Of a stretch of 64,000 bases of DNA, positions 2,965 to 57,504 are shown piece after piece. The stretch's first letter is position 1, and every line of letters begins with the position of its first letter. This stretch comes from Eledone cirrhosa (lineage: Eukaryota). The notes under the pieces were generated by a model, which saw only the letters and a program-made list of their open reading frames with translations, was not told the DNA's origin and did no database searches. Position numbers and translations under genes: made by a program. The DNA is taken from contig OZ024740.1 in NCBI GenBank assembly GCA_964016885.1, forward strand, positions 223,262,001-223,326,000, read 5' to 3'.

Positions 2965-3310
2965 ACCAACTTCATTAGATGTGCTATGTAAATGTGAGAG
3001 AAAGACACAGCATGGATGAACTTAAAGAGAAACTAGGAACCCAAAGTGGGGTGCAAGACAGGAGATTGCAATGGTGCAGACGGGTGATGTGTATGGATAA
3101 TGATTGCTGGGTGAAGAAGTGTCACAAAATCCAAGTGAAAGGAAGCTATGGTAGAGGTGGAGGTGGTGAGAGCTGATCTGAAATTGCTGATATTCACAGA
3201 GGAAATGATGAAGGAATGCAGCATATGTAGAGATGCTGTGCTGAAAAGGATCCGGCCAATGCATGCAAGCATGGAAAAACCAATGTAAAATTGACGATGA
3301 TGAATGATGT
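2965..3310 (+). mobile_element. RTE LINE 3' fragment
   Basis: MCYVNVRERHSMDELKEKLG...VQDRRLQWC followed by the CATGCAAGCATGGAAA...GATGATGA tail. Confidence 0.75.
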
Positions 3311-11775: not shown

Positions 11776-12110
11776 GTGCATACATTTTGCATCTGTCTTG
11801 GACCTAATACCAATTAGTAGGTGCATACATTTTACATCTGTCTTGGACCTAATACCAATTAGTGGGTGCATACATTTTACATCTGTCTTGGACCTAATAC
11901 CAATTAGTGGGTGCATACATTTTACATCTGTCTTGGACCTAATACCAATTAGTGGGTGCATACATTTTACATCTGTCTTGGACCTAATACCAATTAGTGG
12001 GTGCATACATTTTACATCTGTCTTGGACCTAATACCAATTAGTGGGTGCATACATTTTACATCTGTCTTGGACCTAATACCAATAAGTGGGTGCATCATT
12101 TACATCTGCT
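11776..12110. repeat. 45-bp minisatellite, 7 near-identical copies plus a partial copy
   Basis: Unit GTGCATACATTTTACATCTGTCTTGGACCTAATACCAATTAGTGG at 11776, 11821, 11866, 11911, 11956, 12001 and 12046. Confidence 0.97.
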
Positions 12111-17095: not shown

Positions 17096-18383
17096 ACTTT
17101 TTCTGTAAATCATAATAGATTGAATCTTTGTTTAGCTTAATAGAAGCAATGAGCTGTTGATAAGATGGTGACCAGAGTAGACAAAGATCTGTTAACAGTA
17201 ATCAAATTTGACAAGCTAATGACTACTGTTAGCCAAGAGTGCCAATAGAAGAAGCAATGGTGGACAATGCAGTAATAAAATGTGTGAAAGGAACAGAAAA
17301 TGAATATGAAATGAACTAGTTGGAATGGGTAGAGGAATAGTTATAATTTAAAAAAATATATATATAAACAAGTCACAAAATATTAACAGGAAAATCTGAA
17401 GTGGTCATTGACCAGCACATTTAATTATCGTTATATTTATTATTCAAGGTTGGCAGAATTGCTAGAGATTTGGACAAAATGCTTTCAGGCATTTATCTCA
17501 GTTCTTTACATTTTGAGATCAAAACAGGTTTCTGTATAAATGCAGACAATAAACAACCCCAGTTTAGTGAGAATACAGACAAGCTTAGCATACAGTTTTG
17601 AATATAAAGGTAGAGATATCACTGAGACTAAATACAATTTGCAATTGATTATGCACAGATTTTCATAAGGTGAATATGTGCTTGTTAGTGTGAATGTGGA
17701 CTGATAATGGTAAGTTTGAGAGGGGTTTTGCTGTGTGCAGAACAATTTATCTGATGAATGTACTACTCAGAAAGCTAACTCTTTTTAAAGAGTTTGGTAA
17801 GGGGATTCTGAAAAGGTGGTTCAGATTACCTTAACATATCAGAACAATCTAACTGCAATTTGGAAAGCAAGAAGCAATACAATGAACAATCCTCTTTTCC
17901 TTTCCTGGTGGCCATATGTATATTATAGACATGGATGACCACTTCCCAAATAATGATTGGGAATGATTTTCAGCAGATATTATAAGCAGTGTTTGTTGCT
18001 TGTACAGTTCTGGAGTGTAGCTGTAGGTAAATGACTCAAGATTTAGAACAGTGAGCTTTGTTTTTGTGAATGATGAGGGATACCTTTGTACAATAATGTT
18101 TGACGCACCTTCTTAGCTGTCTTGGATTGATCAAGAATTACACAAATTTATTGCCAAGGATAGTCCATGTAGATTTAGTCGAATCCCAATCAAATTTAAG
18201 TATGTACACGTACATACATATATGTATACAGGCATACAGTAGTATGTATATATATATACATGCACACATATATATATGTACGTATAGATTCCCCGAACAT
18301 TTATTATAATGCTCGGTGTGTTTGTAAACAAACATCCCATCCCGTATTAAGCCGTTGTGTCCAGCAACCATCGTTGCTCATTT

Positions 18384-18470
18384 GTTCAACACTGACAAAG
18401 GAATGCTGTACTAGTTTCAAGCTTATTAGCTATCGTCAGCAACGTATACCTTCCTGCCAGATTGTTGAAC
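18384..18470 (-). ncRNA. Type I hammerhead ribozyme motif, second copy
   Basis: Reverse complement equals the + copy except CAGCAT vs CAGCGT, giving one stem I mismatch; core identical. Confidence 0.8.
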
Positions 18471-18732
18471 GTATATACTTACCTTATGCATATTAACGGC
18501 TGAGTAGCCCAATTTGCATATCGAGTGGGTTAATCGGCCGGGTGCACCGAAAACGATAAATGGAAAAAATGAAACGAAATTTCATTTCCCACTCTTAGTA
18601 CGGCTGTTACTTAAATATAAGTATGTACACGTACATACATATATGTATACAGACGTACAGTAGTATGTATATATATATACATACATGCACACATATATAT
18701 ATGTACGTATGGATTCACCGAAAAGTATATAC

Positions 18733-18819
18733 GTTCAACAATCTGGCAGGAAGGTATACGTTGCTGACGATAGCTAATAAGCTTGAAACTAGTACAGCGT
18801 TCCTTTGTCAGTGTTGAAC
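18733..18819 (+). ncRNA. Type I hammerhead ribozyme motif (minimal palindromic stem III, extended stem I)
   Basis: Core CTGACGA 18764-18770; stem II AGCT-AATA-AGCT; GAAA 18785-18788; stem III ACTAGT palindrome; GUA triplet with predicted cut after 18794. Stem I pairs: ACGTTG/CAGCGT, AAGG/CCTT, CTGGCA/TGTCAG, GTTCAACA/TGTTGAAC. Confidence 0.85.
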
Positions 18820-20715
18820 AAACGAGCAACGATCGTTGCTGGACACTACGGCTTAATACGGGATGTTTGTTTACAAACACAGCGAGCATTATAATAAATG
18901 TTCGGTGAATCCATACGTACATATATATATGTGTGCATGTATGTATATATATATACATACTACTGTACGTATGTATACATATATGTATGTACGTGTACAT
19001 ACTTATATTTAAGTAACAGCCGTACTAAGAGTGGGAAATGAAATTTCGTTTCATTTTTCCGTTTACCCAATCAAATTGTTTAACAGAAATATTAAGAGGA
19101 TTGTATGAGAGAAGGTTGATGAAGGATGGGATACCTTGATTAGGAAATAGATGATACACTCAATGAAAATTACTGAGATAATCAAGGGTTTCAAATGAAG
19201 TAAAAACAATGTGATCCCAGAGAAATAAGGAAGGCAGATTTTATGTCAGATTAAGTAGATGCCTTTGTTGCTGACATCTATACAGAGAGAGAGAGAGAGA
19301 TTTTGTATAACTGCAGATTTTGAAAGAAGAATCTGTGTAGCATGTAACCTAGATGATACAAATGTATCAGAAATAGATTTTCTCTCTCTAAGTTTAGATA
19401 CTCTGATATTATTTTGAAAATGTAGTATATGTGATGAAGATGTCATATGTTTAATTTTGCATAGTCGTAAAACCTGACACTTTTAGACAAAGTGAATGTT
19501 AAACATAATTTCTAAGAATTAACAACTTAAGTGTAATTAAATAATTCTAATTAGAAAATGAAACCATATCCTAGTCTTAGTTAATCTGAAATTTGCTTCC
19601 ACTTTATAGTATAGCTTTATAGTATACATGTATCCCATAATTTTCTATATACTCCTCATGTGAACGTGTAGCATCTATGATTTTTTCTTAAAAGTATTTG
19701 TGATATATAGAGAAACTATTTTGATAGCAACCAACCAACCTGAAACTGCTACTTGTTCTATATAATATACATATATTAATACTTATATTAGAGTATTCAT
19801 ATTTATATTAAATGTTTTCAACACTGTTTTATATTAGAACTTTTTAAGCATTGTACCAAACATCAGCTTAATAATGAAAATGTTAGTTATTTGACTAACT
19901 TCCTCCAAAGTTTACATTATTTTCAAAATTAATTAAATCACATTGGCAGTGCATGTCATTAAAAATATCCTAACAAAGGGGTTTGTTTGTTCAAACAGAA
20001 AAATATAAAACAAGTCAGATTGTACAAGATGTAGTTCTTTCGAACCATGACAACCCATCCAAACCATGCCAGCTTTGAAAACAAGTGTAATATAATGATG
20101 ATGATGATGTAAGCATATTGTTAATCTGTGTGACTCACAACAGAAATAGTAACGAAAGTAACAGTGATAACCTCTCTGACTAATACTATCATTTAGAGGG
20201 GATAAATCAAATTACACTATGATTACATATGCCACTAAATGATAAGGAAAGTAAGACTTCAATATCAGAGATACTATTGACGAGAAAGCTTCATAAATTG
20301 TCAAAGATAAACTACATTTCCATCTTCTGTTCTTTGAAATGTTTCCTTGTACAGAGCTAGAAAATTAACTAATTCCAATATAGCAAGAATTATTTATTAT
20401 CTCAGCTGTTCTATGATTAGTTTTTAATTCCCATAACATTCAACTTGTTTAATCATTCACACTTGCTTTCAATATTACATCTGTACATTTGGAACTTCAC
20501 AGAATATTGTAGCTAAATAAACAGGTGACTCTGTTTTTACTATGCCAATCAGAAAGTTAACTACATGAAAGAAACATGTGACTGTGCTTTCTCAATACGG
20601 CTATTCCTTTTTATCTTTCTGTTGCCAATCTCTAACTTATTTCATAACAGAATCTTTTATCCATACACATAATAAATACCATTACTACTTTAAACTTTTG
20701 AAATATGCTTATGAG

Positions 20716-24804: not shown

Positions 24805-25640
24805 ATATCTAGGGCAGGTAAATATCCCAAGATCCATGGACGAGTTCTCTCCAGCGGTCTCTGTCCCTCATTATCGCTGCCATGTCCTGCATCTCCAAGA
24901 GATCAGTGTCTGTCCTTAGGGCATCAACATATGTTAACCTCGGTCTTTCTCTTCCAGTGTGTCCATGTAGGGGCTCCCACAGGAGCACTGAGTGCAGTGT
25001 CAACTCTGGATGTCAGTGAGCATGTCCAGCTAACCTCAGTCTCCTCTGTGACTTTTGAGCTGACGTTTGGGAGGCTCCCGTACAGCTCTGAGTTTTTCAT
25101 CCTCAGTGTATACTGATTAATGTTCAGAGCCATCCTCAGCATTCTCGTGTAGCACCCATTCACCATCTGAGCGAGTTTCTTGATCAGTGTCCAAGTCTCA
25201 GACCCGTACAGCAGTACAGACTCCACTACAGCAATGAAGAGGCGGATTTTCACGTCTTTACGAAGGTCCGACTTCCACACCGATCTCAAGCTGTGCCACG
25301 CCACCCAGGCTTTGCTCTTCCCCTCGACCACATCATCTCTCGTGTTCCCAATCTTTGCTCCCAAATACAGGAAGCTCTCAACCAATTCTAGCGGCTTCCT
25401 GCCTACATTAGTAATCTTCTTTGGCTTCTTAATATTCTCTATCTGATATTTCGTCTTAATCTCATTCATTCTCAGCCCCACACTCATTGACACAGTCTCC
25501 ACCTCCTGCATCAAATCCTCTGCCTCCTTCACTGTGTTTGTCACCAAAACTATGTCGTCAGCAAATTCAGCATCCAATATCTTTTTCACCTTAACTCTCC
25601 TGCTCTGAGCCAGTGCTACAGTAAAAATCAACTCCGATTG
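24805..25640 (-). mobile_element. 5'-truncated RTE-like LINE (RT C-terminal half)
   Basis: ORF 24924-25694 contains FADDIVL, VGLRMNEIKTK, FLYLG, LLYGSETW; frameshifted continuation LWEPLHG...RDRDRWRELV. Confidence 0.85.
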
Positions 25641-28325
25641 GTGGATTTTCGATGTATACTGAGAGAAGACCACAGGTAAAAAAAAGATACTCAATACGTT
25701 AGTAGAGGATAGGCAACTATATTTTATTACTGAAATTACATCTACAGGACTTGAACTGTTTCATTTCTAAGAAATCATTATATATATATATATATGGGTG
25801 GGGTGTAACAATGGGCTTCTACACAGTTTCCATCTGCCAAACTGCCCTCACTGTTTATTGGTCAACCTGTGACTATTGTATAGACACAAGCTGAATATGC
25901 CCCATACATGGTGTTTAACTTTGAATTGCAAGATTACAAACTAAAACTCTTAACCACACAGCAATACCTGCAACTCTATAGAAGTTAATTTAATCATGCA
26001 TATCCTTTGACTCAAACAAACACTGATTTTTTCTTAAACATGAAAGAATGAACTTCTCTATCATTTTCAGTTTATTTGTCAAATACCAAAGGGTGTTGGA
26101 AATTATTTTATTGTCTTGATATAGTCAGACGATGTCATTTTATCATAGTAATATATTTGAGTATATTGAAACAAAATATTTTCACCTTATATATATATAT
26201 ATCCTGGTTTTAATTCCCATTGAGACCTCTGGTATCTTCAATCCATGAACTGTCATTTTCCTCTGCAAAATCAAGACAAGAGTATTACATCTGAGGAAGG
26301 GTTTTTATGGGAAGGAATAACTAATGCATTGGATATCACTAGCTATTCTGCTCAGCAATGTTTTCGTGTTCTTGCCTACATGGCATATCTAAGATATGCT
26401 GTTCAACCAAGAGCATAGAGCCTTCATATTCTTATTTTCTTCTTTTTATTTTTTCTTATATGAAAGTTTGTTTGTTTTTCATGGGGAATTTTGAATAAAA
26501 ATCTCTGTTGATATAAAAAAAAATAAATTCCTTGTAGAAAGAGGTATTTGTAATGCCACCAAGAAGAACCAGAAATTAAAATCGTTTTGCCTTTCAAACA
26601 TTCCACATTCAATAAAATATTGTACCAGCGAATTTCTGAAGTAGAATTAATGACAAACATTTTCGTCAAATTGCTGCCTGTATATTGTAAGATTTACATA
26701 TAATTGTAGTTAAAAGTCACCAGCATGTGGGCATGTCTCCCCACTCTCTCTCTCAAAGAAAGAAACAAACAAACACAGACACATGTGCATATATATGCAT
26801 TTTTGTGTTTATATCTATGTGTCGATATTTGATAAATGCTGGGGACTGTTTATAATTACCATTGTATATAAAACTTAGATAAGCACATTTAATCTACCTT
26901 GACCATTAAGTACCTTTTTTTACTTCCTATAAGCCTTTGTTTAGCTCTACACATGGCTGGTTACTGCAAGATCAAATCCATTTATCAAAACCCAGAGCCA
27001 TTGAAGTTAGCTTTTCAAAATAATTTCTATAGAATTTTCTTTTTGTCTGTTGACCATTTATCCCTGAATACCCTATCCTACCACAGACACATTTTCTTTT
27101 TCTTATTCACTTAAATATTCTAGTTTCAATTAAAAATAATTTCTCTTCCTTCTTACTCCTCTTCGTTCATTCCCTTTCCTTCATTGCCCCTCCTTCTTCC
27201 TTCTCTTCTTCAATAATAATTTATACTTCACATTCAATTTTTCCTTACACCAAATTCCACTACTTTATAAACTCTACCTACATAGTACATACAAGATAAC
27301 ACTAAGCATAAACAAATATCCATGATTGCAGAAATTGAAGATGGATACAGCCAACTGCTGGCAAAATTTTGAAATGATTGCAAACTATTTTTTTGTAAAT
27401 GTATGTGTACTGAGACATGTGTGTAGGGAAATTTTAAAATAAATTTCTATGCTTCAATATAATAAGCATATATTTTGTCTCATTCTAAAAATAGACAAAG
27501 TGTTTAAACCACCACATGTAGCACACTACATAATAAAATGAAGTAGAATAAATGTGATAGTTATGAGCACACTAAAGATGATGGTAGTAGGTATAAGATA
27601 ATAACAGGTCTGATGCAATTCCTCATACATAAGCATATTTATGGGAACAAAAACAAGAGGCAGGAGTGGTAATATTCCTTTAAACTTTTACATAAGATTC
27701 TGGCGACATCATTAGATTCAGATTGCATAATTAGTTAATCAATAAAGGAATTACGGCAAACACAATCAGAGAATAGTGAAAATATATGATTTTGAGATGG
27801 CTGTCGAAATAGGTGTTATTGTTGCTGCAGACAATAAAAAGCTCATCAATCCAAAGCATTATGGGTTTGGTAAGCATGACCAAGATGGGTGGTGGATTTG
27901 TGTGGTGGCAATATACATTCCGCTGATATAGATACTACTATACTGTTAATGAGAGCCAACCAGTCTGCTGCCACAGAGGTTAGGGGTAATACATTCTGTG
28001 TAAATATATCCTGGCCCAAACCAGCTAAGTATGACCATGGAGAAAATCATATTAAAGGTGATATGTTCTATGGAGGTTAAGAAAGATATAAATATATATT
28101 AAAATTTCATGAACAGTAATGAACGTTGGGTTGCAAGTCGTGTTAAGTGAACTTTTTATAACTGTCTTGATGTCCATAGAACATATCATCTTTAATTTAA
28201 TCAACATCAACGATGGATGAGTTGCATAATATTGACTGCTTTTTCTACTATTACACCATGGTTAGCTGAATGGAATGATCAATTCATCCATTGGGAAACC
28301 ACAGAACTTAAATATATATATACAA

Positions 28326-43919: not shown

Positions 43920-44770
43920 TGCCTTGGCTTCTATAGTCGTTGGGAGCATCCAAATGCAGAAGCAGCATATATTCAAAATAGTCTATCCATGGTGGCTGTC
44001 AGAAATCTGGTGTAGACATGTGCGTCCATTCTTTGACATTGTCCAACCAACTTTTGCGTTTGCATCCTCTCTTGCATTCACCTTAAATTGTACCTTGCAT
44101 GATGGTCTTGCACAGGCTGTCATGTCGTGTAACATGGCCAAACCATGCTAGTTTCCATCTCTTGACAGTGGCGAGGAGAGGATCCTGGTGATCCACAAAA
44201 CTTTCATTCTTTCTCCGCACATATTCATTGGTTTTCCTTTCCCAATAGGAAATACGGAGGAGTTTTCTTATGCATTTGTTCTCAAATTCAAGGATCCATT
44301 TCTCTGTTTCTGTACAAAGTGTCCAGATTGCACAACCATATAGGAGGATGGAGACTACCAGTGAATTGTACAATCTGTACTTGGCCTGGAAGCTGATTTT
44401 GCTCCTCCATATTCTTGCTAATTTGGCCAGATATCTGCATTGCTGCTACCATCTTTTGACAAGACTGCTCCCATGTATTTGAAACTGTACACTTCCTCCA
44501 ATGAATGTCTGTTCATGATGTGGATGACACAACCTCCATTCCATATGCTCCTGTTTTTCAACTAGTTTGTTGGTCAAGTCTTGGAGCTCATTGTTACTGC
44601 CTGTTATGAGGTTAATGCCGTCTGCAAAACGAAGGTTACAGACGAGTCTACCACTGACAGAGATAGATTGAAGTATCATCATCATTGAGGGATTCTTGCA
44701 TGATTAACTCTAAATCCGGTTGAACAATGTGGGTGAAAGTATGCACCCTGTCTCATGCCTAAGTTGTCCA
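43920..44770 (-). mobile_element. Decayed RTE-like LINE 3' fragment
   Basis: NLRFADGINL, SILLYGCAIWTL, RKLLRISYWE and WFGHVTR in frameshifted ORFs 44083-44685. Confidence 0.8.
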
Positions 44771-52070: not shown

Positions 52071-55000
52071 TAGAGTTGATTTAGCTTCGTTCCAGTCATC
52101 CATCTCCCTACCTCACAATTTCCCTCCCACCACCATAGCTTATTCGACCAATCAAACCTCAGCATGCCATTTCTTCTGCTACTACTACCTAACTAACTCT
52201 CTCCTCCCCTCTCCCAGCCCAACACACCCTCCCATTATTCCACCACCACTGTTCTTCTAACCCTGAATTTTCCTACCGTTATGGATGGATGAGCTGAGAA
52301 TAAATTTGAACAACTCTGAATTAATAGATGAAATATGAATCTGCAAGCTACCAAGCACCCATGTGAAGCACCAACCAGAGACCCTGCTCTACGAGTGTCG
52401 ACAAATTCCCAAAACTCTAAGTTGGTACCATCAATGTAAGCACAATGAAAGGAAGAGCAGGAGAAATCGTAGAAATGCTAGGGCGAAAGGAAATTGATGT
52501 ATGCTGTGTGCAAGAGACTAGATGGAGAGGAGAGTCTGCTAGAGTCCTTGTAGGAAAAAGTCAGTGCTACAAATTTTTCTGGGTGGGAAATGACGATGGG
52601 ATGGGTGGTGTAGGTATACTACTAGCTGACAAGTGGGTAGATAAAGTAATCTCAGTGTACAGGGTAAATGCAAGAATCATTAAACTCAGACTAGTCCTGA
52701 ATAAAACAATTACCACAATAATATCAGCTTATGCACCCCAATCGGGGTTGCCAGACGAACTTAAGGATGGGTTTTACGAGTCCCTAATGCACACTACTGC
52801 TCTAACAAACGACAATGACTTCCTAATAATCGCAGGAGATTTTAACGAACTTGTAGGTAAACACTGCGATGGCTTCAATAGAGTCCATGGAGGCCATGGG
52901 GTTGGCACAGGAAATGAGGAAGGATTCAGACTTCTAGAATTCTGCGACGCCAATGACATGTCGATATGTAACACAAACTTCAAAAAACCCGACAACCACC
53001 TGATCACCTATAGATCAGGGGAGCATTCTAGTTAGATAGATTTTATCCTCATCAGAGGACGTGACAGATGGACGGTCGTAAACACAAAAGCCTTCCCTAG
53101 TGAGGAATGTACATCCCAACATAGCTTAGTTGTCAGCGACCTCACAGTCAGAACTAGACGAACCTGGAAACAGAGGCCAACCTGGAGAAGAAAGATCTGG
53201 AAGCTGAAAGACCCCTCAACCAGTAACAGATTTAAAGATATTTTACTCAACGCCTACGACAGTAAAGAAGAACAGATACAGACATTCAATGTAGAAGAGA
53301 ACTGGGAGTTCCTAAAAAATAACTTACTAGAGGCGACGGATGAGGTCTGTGGCTGGAGTAAGAACACAAGCAGGAGGAGAGTGACTTGGTGGTGGAACAA
53401 TAAGGTAGATGAGGCAGTTAAGGCCAAGAGACAGGCATGGAAAGAATGGAAGAATGGGGGGAGCAGGGTACATTACATAGAGACCAAGAGGGAAGCTAGG
53501 TGACAAGTATACTTAGCTAGGAGGGAAGCAGAGGATAGAAAATTCAAGCATGTTTTGCAACGTGAGGACCAGAAACAGGAGGTGTTCAAGATTGCGAAGC
53601 AATCTGTCAGAGAGAATTGTGATGTCATTGAAGAGAAGTGTATCCGGAATGATAAAGGTGAACTTGCCCTCACAAGTGCTGAGAAGAGAGATGCATGGAA
53701 GAGTCATTATGATAGATTACTAAACGAAGAGAATACATGGGAAGAAGAGACCATACCCCAAGTAGACCCTATAGAGGGGCCAGCAGTACAAGTCAGCAGC
53801 AGCGTAGTAAGTAAGGCAATCAAAGATATGAAGATGGGGAAGGCAACCGGTCCATTGGGTATAGCTGCCGAGATACTGAAGGCATCTGGGTCTGTAGGTC
53901 ACACTATAACCACACGTATTGTTAACCAGGTAATACTAGAAGGTGTCATACCAAAAGATTGGTGCAGTAGCATCATTGTCAACTGCTACAAAGGTAAAGG
54001 TGATGCACTAGATAGAGGAAACTATAGAGGTATAAAGCTGATGGACCAGGTCATGAAAGTAACAGAAAGAGTTATAGCACAGTTGAGTGTGGACCGGGTG
54101 AAACTAGACGAGATGCAATTTGGGTTTGTGCCAGGAAGAGGCACCACTGATGCCCTCTTCCTTGTGAGGCAGTTACAGGAAAAGTACCTAGCTAAAAGTA
54201 AGCCACTCTACCTGGCATTTGTCGATCTTGAGAAAGCCTTTGACAGAGTTCCACATGCTGTAATCTGGTGGGCTCTTAGAAAACTAGGAGTAGATGAATG
54301 GCTTGTGAAAGCGGTACAAGCCCTGTATAGGGGAGCAGTCAGCAAAGTTAGGATTAGCAATGAGTATAGCGAGGAATTTAGCGTACAGGTTGGGGTCCAC
54401 CAGGACTCTGTTCTTAGCCCCCTCCTGTTCATCATAGTCCTGCAGGCAATAATGGAGGAGCTTAAGACCGGATGTCCATGGGAACTCCTGTATGCTGATG
54501 ACCTTGCACTTATAGCTGAATCTATGGTAGAACTAGAGAAGAAATTCCAAATTTGGAAGCAGGGACTAGAAAGAAGGGGTCTCAAAGTGAACATGACAAA
54601 GACTAAGGTCCTTGTAAGTAGACGAGAAAACAGAACCCAGATCCCCCCAGGGAAATGGCCTTGCTTAGTATGTCGGAAAGGTGTAGGTAGGAACTCTATT
54701 CTCTACCCCATATGCAAACAATGGGTACACAAGAGATGTAGCGGGATCTCAGGAAGCTTAATTAAGAATGTAGGCTTCACATGCAGCAGCTGTGCTGGGA
54801 CAGCAAGCAGCAAACAGCCACAGGAAACAAGTACCACCAATCTCTGGGAGGGCTCTGTAGAAACAGTAGACAGCTTCTGCTACCTAGGTGACCGAATTAG
54901 CAGCGGAGGTGGGTGTTCAGAAAGTACAATAACTAGGGTAAGGACGGGATGGAAGAAGTTTAGGGAACTACTGCCACTGCTAGCTGCAAAAGGCTTTTCC

Positions 55001-55361
55001 CTCAAAATGAAAGGCAGACTGTATGATGCGTGTATACAAACAGCAATGTTACATGGTAGTGAGACCTGGGCGCTGAAGGTGGAAGACTTACGTAGATTAG
55101 AAAGAAACGAAGCCTGCATGCTCCGATGGGTGTGTAATAGTAATATAAGCGAACAGCAAAGCATAAATGAATTGAGAGAGAGACTGAACATAAGGGGAAT
55201 CAAATGCTGTGTGCAGGAGGGGCGGTTGTGTTGGTATGGACATTTTATGCAGCTGTCATCCTTCATACGCATCACAGGTGCAGAGCACTAGAAGTCGATG
55301 GAAACCGCGGAGTGGGGACACCCAAGATGACCTGGGATGAGGTGATAAAAGCCGACCTTAT
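52070..55361 (+). mobile_element. Near full-length RTE-clade LINE: pyrimidine-rich 5' UTR plus single APE endonuclease-RT ORF with internal PHD-like finger
   Basis: ORFs 52445-53035 and 53555-55291 are in the same frame. EN motifs GTINV, VQETRW, SAYAPQ, AGDFN, IDFIL; RT motifs NYRGIKL, QFGFVPGRGTTDA, AFVDLEKAFDRV, GVHQDSVLSPLLF, LLYADD, FCYLGD, LHGSETW. Confidence 0.93.
52421..55359 (+). pseudogene. RTE ORF (endonuclease/reverse transcriptase), disrupted
   Basis: In-frame TAG 53033-53035 and TGA 53501-53503, TAA just before VGTINV (52418-52420), and a 32-bp inversion with frameshift at 55244-55275. Confidence 0.9.
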
Positions 55362-56479: not shown

Positions 56480-57160
56480 ATCATCATCATCATCATCATC
56501 AACGTTTAACGTCCGTGTTCCACGCTTGCATGGGTTTGGACGGGGGTATTCCCACTTGAGGCAAGAGTGATTGTCTTGCTCGCATAGGACTGTCTGGCAG
56601 GTTTTCTACAGTTGGATGCCCTTCCTAACACCAACCACATTTACAGTGTGGGTCTGGGAGGTTTTTACCGTGTTGCCTACACGGCCACATTACAGCGTGG
56701 ACTGTGTGTTTTTTTGTCGTGACACCTACACGATCTCATTTGTTTCGGCCTGGATGGTGTTGCACCAACATAACTTTACATAGAACGGGGTGGTGTGGAT
56801 GGGGTGGGGGTGGTGGGGGTGGGACGGGGTGTATTTTGTTAGAGATGCCTACTGGCTGGAGTAGGTTTTACTATATATTTAGGTAAGGCGGGTCTTCTCT
56901 GTTACTGAGTACCGCCAAAGGTCTCGGTCCAGTGACATTGTCTTGGAGAGGTGTAAGTGTGTGATGTCGGAGTTTATCAGCTCATCCCAGGTTTTTCTAG
57001 GTCTGCCTATTCCGTGACTACCGTCTATCTTTATTGCCCTGCACTTTGTTATACATCTATCGACTTTCATGCGCATCACGTGTCCATACCAACGTAGCCT
57101 TCTCTCGAGTAAACAACATCTGATCCCTCTTATCTCTAATTTTTTCCTTAGTTCGTTTAT
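56480..57160 (-). mobile_element. 5'-truncated RTE LINE 3' fragment
   Basis: ORF 56879-57214 includes ELRKKLEIRGIRCCLLERRLRWYGHVMRM...GRPRKTWDE; 3' UTR and (GAT)n tail at 56481-56500. Confidence 0.85.
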
Positions 57161-57504
57161 ATATATATATATATATCCCATGATTCTGACATATATTAAA
57201 TACACATTTACCACTAGTATGTTCCAATATACACATCATCTAGGATTCTAATGTATCGTTATTGCTTCCTAAACTCTTGCTATAGTTTTAACCGCTCTCA
57301 TTGTTATGTCTGCCACTTACTACAATATACATAACCAGTAACTGAAGGGGGGGGGGGGGGCATATATTTCCTAGAATAGTTGGAAGCTAGCATCAAGAGT
57401 GTGAAAAACAACTTCAATTATATAAGTAAATATATAAATGTTCAACAGACGGATGTAGTAGTATCATTATCATTATTATTATTATTAGTACTAGTAGTAG
57501 TAAT

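What the first reader, a model, noticed from the sequence alone, without database searches (positions are those of the whole stretch)
18197..19065. Candidate cephalopod retrozyme: young, TSD-flanked, non-coding 421-bp repeat unit carrying hammerhead ribozymes
Seen: an 869-bp, CpG-retaining insertion between 12-bp direct repeats CCCAATCAAATT. It contains a 421-bp unit (starts at 18197 and 18618) with no real ORF, one type I hammerhead motif per unit, and several internal hairpins (AGCAACGATCGTTGCT 18825-18840, TGTTTG-TTTA-CAAACA, AAATGAAA-TTTCG-TTTCATTT). Established: tandem small non-coding units with type I hammerheads are known as non-LTR retrozymes (newt satellite 2 type; circular RNAs reported in other metazoans including a bivalve), and Penelope-like elements carry minimal hammerheads. 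Inference: this is a mobile self-cleaving RNA family producing ~420-nt linear/circular monomers and borrowing a Penelope or LINE RT. I do not recognise this family as described, but cannot check.
Basis: partly seen in the sequence, partly recalled or inferred. Interest (0 to 1): 0.92.

Follow-up and report, generated by a model that had tools for sequence, protein, structure and literature searches.

The report
Penelope-mobilised hammerhead repeat (retrozyme)
This is one copy of a very abundant 420-base non-coding repeat that carries a self-cleaving RNA motif and was pasted into the genome in the way Penelope-type retrotransposons insert, so it is a new member of the known animal 'retrozymes', with unusually clear signs of which enzyme moves it.

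Summary
The insertion (18197-19065, 12-bp TSD) is real, but it is not two direct 421-bp units. It has two head-to-head arms. The left arm (minus strand) is a 105-nt fragment plus one full unit; the right arm (plus strand) is 283 nt plus a 60-nt tail. Each arm holds one minimal type I hammerhead, on opposite strands, so this copy cannot release a monomer.

The genome holds 10,573 exact copies of the hammerhead core and a younger 465-nt sister family with the same fold and compensatory changes. Two-armed insertions end at two fixed sites, 62 nt apart in this family (21 of 25) and 77 nt apart in the sister (27 of 30), mostly in (TA)n. That is the Penelope 'tail' signature. Penelope-like elements abound here, but none of 80 loci tested shared the unit's ends.

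Verdict: a new non-LTR retrozyme family, most likely moved in trans by a Penelope-like RT. Cleavage, circles and the cephalopod host are untested. My test for a monomer-circle template went against it. A modest sense-strand A>G skew (24 vs 10) hints at RNA editing. The scan earlier noted tRNA-bearing analogues on other DNA, not this sequence.

The parts
18185..18196 (+). left target-site duplication CCCAATCAAATT
18197..18617 (-). left arm, one full 421-nt unit (sense = minus strand). Its 3' end at 18197 is the family's fixed end 'site A'
   Evidence: 97.6% identical to the family majority
18403..18445 (-). minimal type I hammerhead of the left arm: stem I ACGTTG/CAGCAT (one mismatch), core CTGACGA, stem II AGCT-AATA-AGCT, GAAA, palindromic stem III ACTAGT; predicted cut after GTA, between 18409 and 18408
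   Evidence: covariation
18556..18617 (-). first 62 nt of the unit: the 'tail' segment between end sites A and B, with the GAAATGAAA/TTTCATTT hairpin
18618..18722 (-). left arm, 5'-truncated 105-nt end of the preceding unit (long TA-rich hairpin)
18722..18723 (.). head-to-head inversion junction where the two 5'-truncated arms meet
18723..19005 (+). right arm, 5'-truncated unit (unit positions 138-421)
18758..18800 (+). minimal type I hammerhead of the right arm (stem I ACGTTG/CAGCGT); predicted cut after A18794
19006..19065 (+). right arm tail (unit positions 1-61), ending at the second fixed end 'site B'
19066..19077 (+). right target-site duplication CCCAATCAAATT

Best explanation
A non-autonomous, hammerhead-bearing tandem retroelement (animal non-LTR retrozyme) moved in trans by an endonuclease-bearing Penelope-like element. 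Shown: a 420-nt structured non-coding unit in more than 10,000 copies, as monomers, head-to-tail arrays and head-to-head two-armed insertions whose arms end at two fixed points 62 nt apart, mostly inside (TA)n. Inferred mechanism: tandem source loci are transcribed on the hammerhead strand. A Penelope-like RT/GIY-YIG protein (Neptune-type ones are abundant here) binds the tail stem-loop, nicks both target strands and starts reverse transcription internally, once at site A and once at site B. The two cDNAs grow toward each other, stop at scattered points and are joined 5' to 5', leaving a TSD. The hammerheads, whose stem III is only a 6-nt palindrome, should cut only when two copies pair, giving ~420-nt monomers that may circularise. 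Whether the RT template is the uncut multimer or a monomer circle is unresolved (my estimate about 55:45 for the multimer). The window copy is an off-target (non-TA), dead-end insertion.
For: Copy number: 10,573 exact 31-nt cores, reversed control 0; best hits 95-97% identical; median identity of 56 full units to their majority 97.8%. Ends: of 25 two-armed family-A insertions 21 end at site A on one arm and site B on the other; sister family 27 of 30; (TA)4 or more within 25 nt at 43 of 50 and 51 of 60 arm ends. Genome-wide, 3,290 tail ends run straight into TATATA, against 3,535 that continue into the unit; sister family 1,934 tail ends. Craig et al. (PMC8557442, passages and section 15) describe partial tandems, an inverted 5'-truncated copy, a tail at one end and (TA)n bias as PLE traits, and say the tail is not seen in non-LTR TPRT. 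Frangieh et al. (PMC11167929, parts 1-2 of 4) show that a PLE protein nicks both strands of AT-rich DNA and starts RT at two internal sites that bound the tail. Ribozyme under selection: across 16 units of both families, 3 of 4 stem II pairs and 3 of 6 stem I pairs change on both sides, and the base before the cut is A, C or T, never G. Whole fold: 24 of 82 pairs change on both sides, 96.6% of cells paired, 0 of 500 shuffles as high, slid controls 2-5 pairs. Enzymes are present: 150 of 150 scored GIY-YIG matches over cut-off; RT and GIY-YIG in one frame in 7 of 10 proteins; CX2-5CxxC-type linker in 8 of 11. Pieces of the family lie in contigs of two further coded organisms.
Against: No autonomous partner found: none of 50 GIY-YIG loci or 30 loci of a further PLE family carries the unit's ends as its own terminus; the hits were separate whole-unit insertions. 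Only 80 PLE loci out of thousands of candidates were examined. Rfam does not recognise the hammerhead even at E up to 10. The minimum-energy monomer fold pairs the core into an inactive helix. The tail is 62 nt (77 in the sister family), longer than the 30-40 bp in PMC8557442. The covariation reflects mainly one split between two families, and the structure was derived from the same sequences. In the anole PLE, hammerhead mutants did not affect insertion in vitro and no RNA-seq reads ended at the cut (PMC11167929); only 1 of 9 Xenopus dimers cleaved in vitro (bioRxiv 10.64898/2026.07.22.740005).
Confidence: 0.85

Rival explanations
1. The unit is only the pseudo-LTR of an autonomous Penelope-like element not yet located, and the copies are its 5'-truncated remnants.
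For: Same insertion anatomy and a minimal hammerhead of PLE type (PMC4209133 part 1 of 4 and passages). PLE fragments lie near the unit at L081, L089 and L109/L110. In Xenopus, 24 of 57 retrozyme families matched Repbase elements, 21 of the 22 matched elements being PLEs, at their ends (bioRxiv 10.64898/2026.07.22.740005).
Against: Upstream of a unit lies another unit, not coding sequence: arrays of up to 4 full units in the fetched family-A loci, 10 units by listed spacing and 20-25 in the sister family. No shared coding flank among 30 loci. At L081 and L089, the two read in full, the PLE fragments are separated from the unit by TA runs or unrelated sequence, and the family next to L081 shares no end sequence with it.
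Confidence: 0.08
2. Sub-question, template form 1: each insertion is rolling-circle reverse transcribed from one monomeric circular RNA, as the retrozyme model proposes.
For: In young sister-family loci all units of both arms carry the same variants: L195 has 0 unit-level differences in 8,537 nt over 20 pieces, L197 6 in 8,804, and 22 loci show variants fixed across both arms. Family A shares variants within loci more than between them (fraction 0.14-0.18 against 0.044). 5' truncations do not pile up at the predicted cut (0 of 81 and 0 of 73 within 8 nt), so RT reads through it. A clustered triple A>G occurs in 70 of 70 matches, with none showing only the last two changes, so one monomer was turned into long arrays at least once.
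Against: The L195 haplotype is not private: it stands in 70 units at 7 loci. Five of these 7 loci have 7 or more units, against 3 of 27 other loci (p 0.0035), as if array length were inherited from a long parent transcript; age is confounded. No arm exceeds the 17-unit arm on C18. ABAB arrays (L206; 422/420 spacing at C1:49.58 Mb) and a variant with a roughly 3-unit period in L197 point to DNA-level duplication after insertion. Some family-A loci mix subfamilies (L082, L210, L212). The truncation sets were chosen partly on an intact hammerhead, and in 11 tail-chosen loci 2 of 17 5' ends (my count) lie within 4 nt of the cut. Assembly polishing could homogenise arrays.
Confidence: 0.4
3. Sub-question, template form 2: uncut linear multimers from homogeneous parent arrays are the template, and the hammerhead is a relic or acts at another step.
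For: (shared haplotype, inherited-looking length). Unprocessed RNA was the dominant substrate for the anole PLE in vitro (PMC11167929). The monomer folds with an inactive core. In the window, the right arm differs from the inner part of the left arm at 2 places in 166 nt but from the terminal unit at 6 in 109 and 6 in 183, as expected if both arms copied one mixed dimer; this is not significant (p 0.06).
Against: Hammerhead stems and core are kept by compensatory change across two families, which implies selection for cleavage. Circles are abundant for mussel, coral and axolotl retrozymes (PMC7229834, sections 14 and 17).
Confidence: 0.45
4. A DNA-level element: foldback/MITE transposon or a satellite spread by recombination.
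For: Long inverted repeats inside the insertion; local duplication of arrays does occur.
Against: The two ends are different unit positions, not terminal inverted repeats. The inversion point varies from locus to locus while the 3' ends are fixed, and 5' truncation is general. RNA structure covaries.
Confidence: 0.03

Closest known systems
Animal non-LTR retrozymes (Cervera and de la Pena 2020, PMC7229834: mussel 350-390 bp, coral, axolotl; Li, Clavereau and Pollet 2026, bioRxiv 10.64898/2026.07.22.740005)
   Same: Non-coding tandem unit in the 150-450 bp range, low GC, one type I hammerhead per unit, TSD longer than 4 bp, highly self-paired RNA, co-occurrence with PLEs.
   Different: New sequence family. 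Two-armed head-to-head insertions with two fixed ends and (TA)n targeting were not found described for retrozymes in what I read: 'inverted' and 'microsatellite' have 0 hits in PMC7229834, and review PMC7761336 says no conserved motif points to the partner. The preprint's main text covers vertebrates, insects and a coral and names no mollusc. Circles and cleavage are shown there, not here. Supplements were not seen.
Endonuclease-bearing Penelope-like elements (Neptune, Penelope/Poseidon, Naiad; PMC8557442, PMC11167929, PMC4209133)
   Same: Partial tandems, inverted 5'-truncated copy, tail at one end, (TA)n or AT-rich targets, minimal hammerhead with palindromic stem III.
   Different: No RT/GIY-YIG frame; the whole element is 420 nt; tail 62-77 nt rather than 30-40.
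Non-autonomous Chlamys elements such as MRC1 of Chlamydomonas (PMC8557442 passage)
   Same: Non-autonomous PLE dependants forming pLTRs and multicopy head-to-tail insertions.
   Different: Those share 3' sequence with autonomous families and Chlamys mostly lack hammerheads; here a hammerhead is conserved and no partner with shared ends was found.
Newt satellite 2 (hammerhead satellite; its snRNA-type promoter is recalled, not read)
   Same: Tandem unit with a dimer-type hammerhead.
   Different: No snRNA-type promoter found in this unit.

Membership tests
Animal non-LTR retrozyme | type I hammerhead in each unit | tested here: met
   Motif complete in both arms; core nearly invariant in 56 units, partly chosen on it; stems covary. 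Rfam models do not match.
Animal non-LTR retrozyme | head-to-tail tandem units of about 150-450 bp | tested here: met
   Family: 404-436 nt units, arrays of 2-4 full units in fetched loci. This locus has only one full unit plus a fragment per direction.
Animal non-LTR retrozyme | two consecutive units with a complete hammerhead ('active' copy of Li et al.) | tested here: inconclusive
   Met at other loci (e.g. L206, L207); not met at this locus, where the two motifs are on opposite strands.
Animal non-LTR retrozyme | non-coding, GC below 50% | tested here: met
   Longest ATG frame 78 aa; GC 0.36 for 18001-19000.
Animal non-LTR retrozyme | TSD longer than 4 bp where visible | tested here: met
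   12 bp here; hidden in (TA)n at most other loci.
Animal non-LTR retrozyme | self-cleavage of the transcript | not testable with these tools
   Needs in vitro transcription of a dimer.
Animal non-LTR retrozyme | accumulation of monomeric circular RNA | not testable with these tools
   Needs gonad RNA; indirect genomic tests were split.
Animal non-LTR retrozyme | no primer-binding site or polypurine tract | not tested
   Not searched.
Autonomous EN+ Penelope-like element | RT plus GIY-YIG frame between the repeats | tested here: not met
Autonomous EN+ Penelope-like element | inverted 5'-truncated copy and a tail at one end | tested here: met
   21 of 25 and 27 of 30 two-armed insertions.
Autonomous EN+ Penelope-like element | (TA)n or AT-rich target bias | tested here: met
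   43 of 50 and 51 of 60 arm ends. This copy is an exception.
Non-autonomous derivative of a named PLE family | end sequence shared with an autonomous partner | tested here: inconclusive
   None in 80 PLE loci; most PLE families unsampled.
tRNA-derived SINE | tRNA-like head | tested here: not met
   ARAGORN found 0 genes in 3 of 3 loci; degenerate A/B boxes not tested.
MITE / foldback DNA transposon | terminal inverted repeats at both ends | tested here: not met
   Ends are unit positions 421 and 61.
Newt satellite 2 type | snRNA-type internal promoter (recalled) | tested here: not met
   A profile of 9 host U1/U2 upstream regions scores -3.6 to -13.4 on the units, with 8-70 of 100 shuffles as high; no octamer within 300 bp upstream of 16 snRNA genes.

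The most novel reading that the evidence does not exclude
These two families are a still-active retrozyme system whose genomic copies record their RNA life. A circular monomer, edited A-to-I, is rolling-circle copied by a Penelope RT from two internal start sites into two-armed arrays of up to 25 identical units, so RNA editing feeds heritable variants back into the germline genome and founds new lineages (the triple A>G lineage of 7 loci). The conserved multi-hairpin fold would be the RNA recognised by a telomerase-related RT in trans, without end sequence shared with its partner. Support: variants fixed within sister-family loci are A>G 24 against T>C 10 on the sense strand, with equal A and T content (p 0.024), strictly locus-private 9 against 2, while unit-private changes are symmetric, 18 against 21. 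Limits: the contrast of the two classes gives p 0.057, the 11 fresh loci alone gave 6 against 3, and transcription-linked mutation bias or RT error would give the same skew.
Probability: 0.25. Interest if true: 0.8.

Novelty: new member of a known kind. Interest (0 to 1): 0.55.

Why it matters
The enzyme that moves animal retrozymes, and whether circles are the real transposition intermediate, are stated as open in the papers read (PMC7229834 discussion; PMC7761336; bioRxiv 10.64898/2026.07.22.740005, which gives distribution and tree evidence in vertebrates). Here thousands of young copies carry the Penelope two-start 'tail' and two-armed anatomy, which ties a hammerhead repeat to Penelope machinery by insertion signature. 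The sister family has arrays with no internal divergence, so it is probably active now and offers a short, structured RNA for an in vitro test with a PLE protein: circle against multimer, role of the hammerhead, and whether A-to-I edits are written back to DNA.

Tried and rejected
Rfam: nothing at gathering score; at E up to 10 no hammerhead family among 108 matches, which are mostly microRNA-like hits on the TA-rich hairpin. RNA runs: no RNA holder listed, which is no evidence on expression. Four contig sets of unrecorded kind were laid: run X1 covers both junctions of this very insertion without differences and may be the source sample; its summed depth over the unit is about five orders of magnitude above the flanks, but that is not a copy number. 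Partner search: PF26215 is not in the library. GIY-YIG loci and a PLE family beside L081 showed other hammerheads but no shared ends. A looser hammerhead pattern meant to reveal a partner returned a subfamily of the sister repeat instead (96 of the first 100 rows). snRNA-promoter idea from an ATGCAAAT octamer shared by both families (octamer and newt precedent recalled): rejected, since host U1/U2 upstream regions lack the octamer, their profile does not match the units, and the octamer is lost in a young lineage; the paper on the newt promoter was not found. 'Locus-private variants prove a monomer bottleneck at each insertion': weakened. An apparent gap in 5' truncations across the hammerhead vanished in tail-chosen loci and is taken as selection bias. 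Host lineage: the nearest named relatives of one genomic PLE protein are from bivalves, which does not test 'cephalopod'. Literature: eight searches found no description of this family or of edited retrozyme copies; an Octopus vulgaris repeat annotation has 0 hits for 'ribozyme' (PMC13282606, passages). Dfam and Repbase could not be searched. Only 12 short extra sister-family loci (11 usable) were added as a replicate, and the ABAB array at C1:49.58 Mb and the other six triple-A>G loci were not read.
Full report
Observation. The 869-bp insertion 18197-19065 lies between exact 12-bp repeats that occur nowhere else in the window, and it keeps its CpGs (o/e 1.41 against 0.28). It is not a direct tandem. 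On the minus strand, 18722 to 18197 reads as the last 105 nt of one unit followed by a full 421-nt unit. On the plus strand, 18723-19065 reads as unit positions 138-421 followed by positions 1-61. The arms meet 5' to 5'. Each holds a minimal type I hammerhead (CTGACGA, 4-bp stem II, GAAA, palindromic ACTAGT as stem III, GTA cut triplet, stem I), at 18439 on minus and 18764 on plus. No transcript of this locus has two ribozymes in one direction, so it cannot release a monomer. Rfam does not recognise the motif. There is no coding frame.

Family. A DNA search of the 3.0-Gb own genome gave 1,275 candidates; the best 40 were 95-100% identical. The exact 31-nt core occurs 10,573 times, reversed control 0. 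56 full units are a median 97.8% identical to their majority and the window unit 97.6%; CpG sites differ twice as often as others (5.6% against 2.7%). I analysed 58 family-A loci: the 60, less 11 overlapping ones, plus 9 stretches. Of these, 25 are two-armed, 31 one-armed, 1 complex and 1 cut by the edge. Of the 25, 21 end at unit position 421 (site A) on one arm and at position 62 (site B) on the other; 43 of 50 arm ends abut (TA)n. Genome-wide 3,290 site-B ends run into TATATA. The window copy, with a unique TSD, is an off-target exception. Contigs of two other coded organisms hold pieces of the unit.

Sister family. A hairpin like the tail, seen beside a PLE locus, led to a 463-468-nt tandem family with the same order of parts, a 77-nt tail and the same ACTAGT hammerhead. 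A pattern for one subfamily gave 5,774 matches (96 of the first 100 rows that subfamily), and 1,934 tail ends run into TA. Of 44 loci, 30 are two-armed and 27 of these end A plus B (two of the 44 have the same junction and may be one duplicated locus). In a 16-sequence alignment of both families, 24 of 82 predicted pairs change on both sides, including 3 of 4 in hammerhead stem II and 3 of 6 in stem I; no shuffle of 500 reached this and slid controls gave 2-5 pairs. This mostly records one split between two families, and the structure came from these sequences, but it shows that the RNA fold on the hammerhead strand is what is conserved.

What moves it. Craig et al. (PMC8557442; passages and section 15) give partial tandems, an adjacent inverted 5'-truncated copy, a 30-40-bp tail at one end and (TA)n bias as traits of Penelope-like elements, and note that the tail is not seen with non-LTR elements. 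Frangieh et al. (PMC11167929; parts 1-2 of 4) show that an anole PLE protein nicks both strands of AT-rich DNA and starts reverse transcription at two internal sites that bound the tail. The pattern here matches point by point, with a longer tail. The genome is rich in such enzymes: 150 of 150 scored GIY-YIG matches pass the cut-off, 7 of 10 frames hold RT and GIY-YIG together, and 8 of 11 have the cysteine linker that PMC8557442 assigns to Neptune and Nematis. No partner with shared ends turned up in 80 PLE loci, and at the two loci read in full the neighbouring PLE fragments are separated from the unit. The partner is inferred, not found.

Template: circle or multimer. In the youngest sister-family arrays all units of both arms are alike and differ from other sampled loci: L195 has 0 unit-level differences in 8,537 nt, L197 6 in 8,804, and 22 loci have variants fixed on both arms. 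5' truncations do not gather at the predicted cut (biased sets, and 2 of 17 lie near it in tail-chosen loci). I first read this as a monomer bottleneck at each insertion. The direct test went against that reading: the three A>G changes of L195 stand in 70 units at 7 loci, and 5 of those 7 loci have 7 or more units against 3 of 27 others (p 0.0035), as expected if long homogeneous parents give long daughters; youth is a confounder. ABAB arrays and a periodic variant show duplication at the DNA level too, and polishing of the assembly could hide differences. One monomer did become long arrays at least once, since all 70 matches carry all three changes. The question stays open.

A>G skew. Variants fixed within sister-family loci, counted once per site, are A>G 24 against T>C 10 on the hammerhead strand (p 0.024; A and T are equal in the unit); strictly private ones 9 against 2; unit-private changes 18 against 21. 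The contrast of the two classes gives p 0.057, and the 11 usable fresh loci (of 12 fetched) gave 6 against 3. Family A points the same way (7 against 1 before merging repeats). A-to-I editing of the template would explain this and the clustered triple; transcription-linked mutation bias or RT error would too. Ancestral states were set from the nearest sampled loci and may be wrong at some sites.

Comparison. It meets the sequence-level definition of animal non-LTR retrozymes (PMC7229834, sections 14 and 17 and passages; bioRxiv 10.64898/2026.07.22.740005, parts 1-3 of 5, the main text; PMC7761336, passages; PMC4209133, part 1 of 4 and passages). Cleavage and circles, shown for mussel, coral and axolotl, could not be tested. 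It fails membership of autonomous PLEs, tRNA SINEs and MITEs. An snRNA-type promoter as recalled for newt satellite 2 was tested against host U1/U2 genes and rejected. Eight literature searches found no description of this family; Dfam, Repbase and paper supplements were not seen and may hold it or similar anatomy. The scan holds no look-alike sequence but two earlier AI notes on tRNA-bearing repeats with Penelope-type insertions in other genomes, which I did not test.

Verdict. A new member of a known kind, interest 0.55. The value lies in a clear Penelope insertion signature on a hammerhead repeat and in a probably active sister family that makes the circle and editing questions testable.

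Noticed in passing
L125:345-2653; L195; G000 C18:30950487-30961702: Sister retrozyme family of 463-468 nt with near-identical head-to-head arrays of up to 25 units; probably active now.
   Followed up: yes
G000 C1:30.83 Mb, C1:85.31 Mb, C1:322.55 Mb, C6:54.09 Mb, C18:30.95 Mb, C410, C744: A seven-locus lineage that shares three clustered A>G changes in one hairpin, with unusually long arrays; only one locus was read.
   Followed up: partly
L206; G000 C1:49584009-49588404: Family-A arrays with alternating 422/420-nt spacing (ABAB): recent dimer duplication or a dimeric template.
   Followed up: partly
L234:553-1550: A diverged 458-nt subfamily of family A (about 77% identical) with the same hammerhead and tail-into-TA end, next to a sister-family insertion.
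   Followed up: partly
L064, L065, L068, L073, L075 (3' regions); L061, L062, L066, L042: Several coding Penelope-like families carry their own minimal hammerheads with palindromic stem III; some appear to have a TTGANAA core, like the U3-A8 variant in PMC4209133.
   Followed up: no
L066:5706-5825, L235 about 3150-3200, L070, L072: Other short hammerhead-bearing repeats (stem III TGATCA; and a stable CAG/CTG stem III) sit in TA runs beside PLEs and may be further retrozyme families.
   Followed up: no
L131-L133, L151-L164, 100 nt upstream of U1 and U2 genes: Host snRNA genes share a three-part upstream pattern (AATTA near -90, TCAGT near -57, TATA-like near -32) with no octamer; the genes lie in tandem arrays of about 2.2 and 2.7 kb period.
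   Followed up: partly
window 52421-55291 (+): Nearly complete LINE-type frame (endonuclease-like then RT-like by eye) with two in-frame stops; further fragments at 24924-25760, 44083-44445 and 56879-57235.
   Followed up: no
window 11776-12108: 45-bp minisatellite, 7.4 copies, 98% matches.
   Followed up: no
L122 (C2:177.70 Mb) and L223 (C1:331.41 Mb): Two sister-family loci on different contigs share the same inversion junction, so the insertion was probably duplicated as DNA.
   Followed up: no
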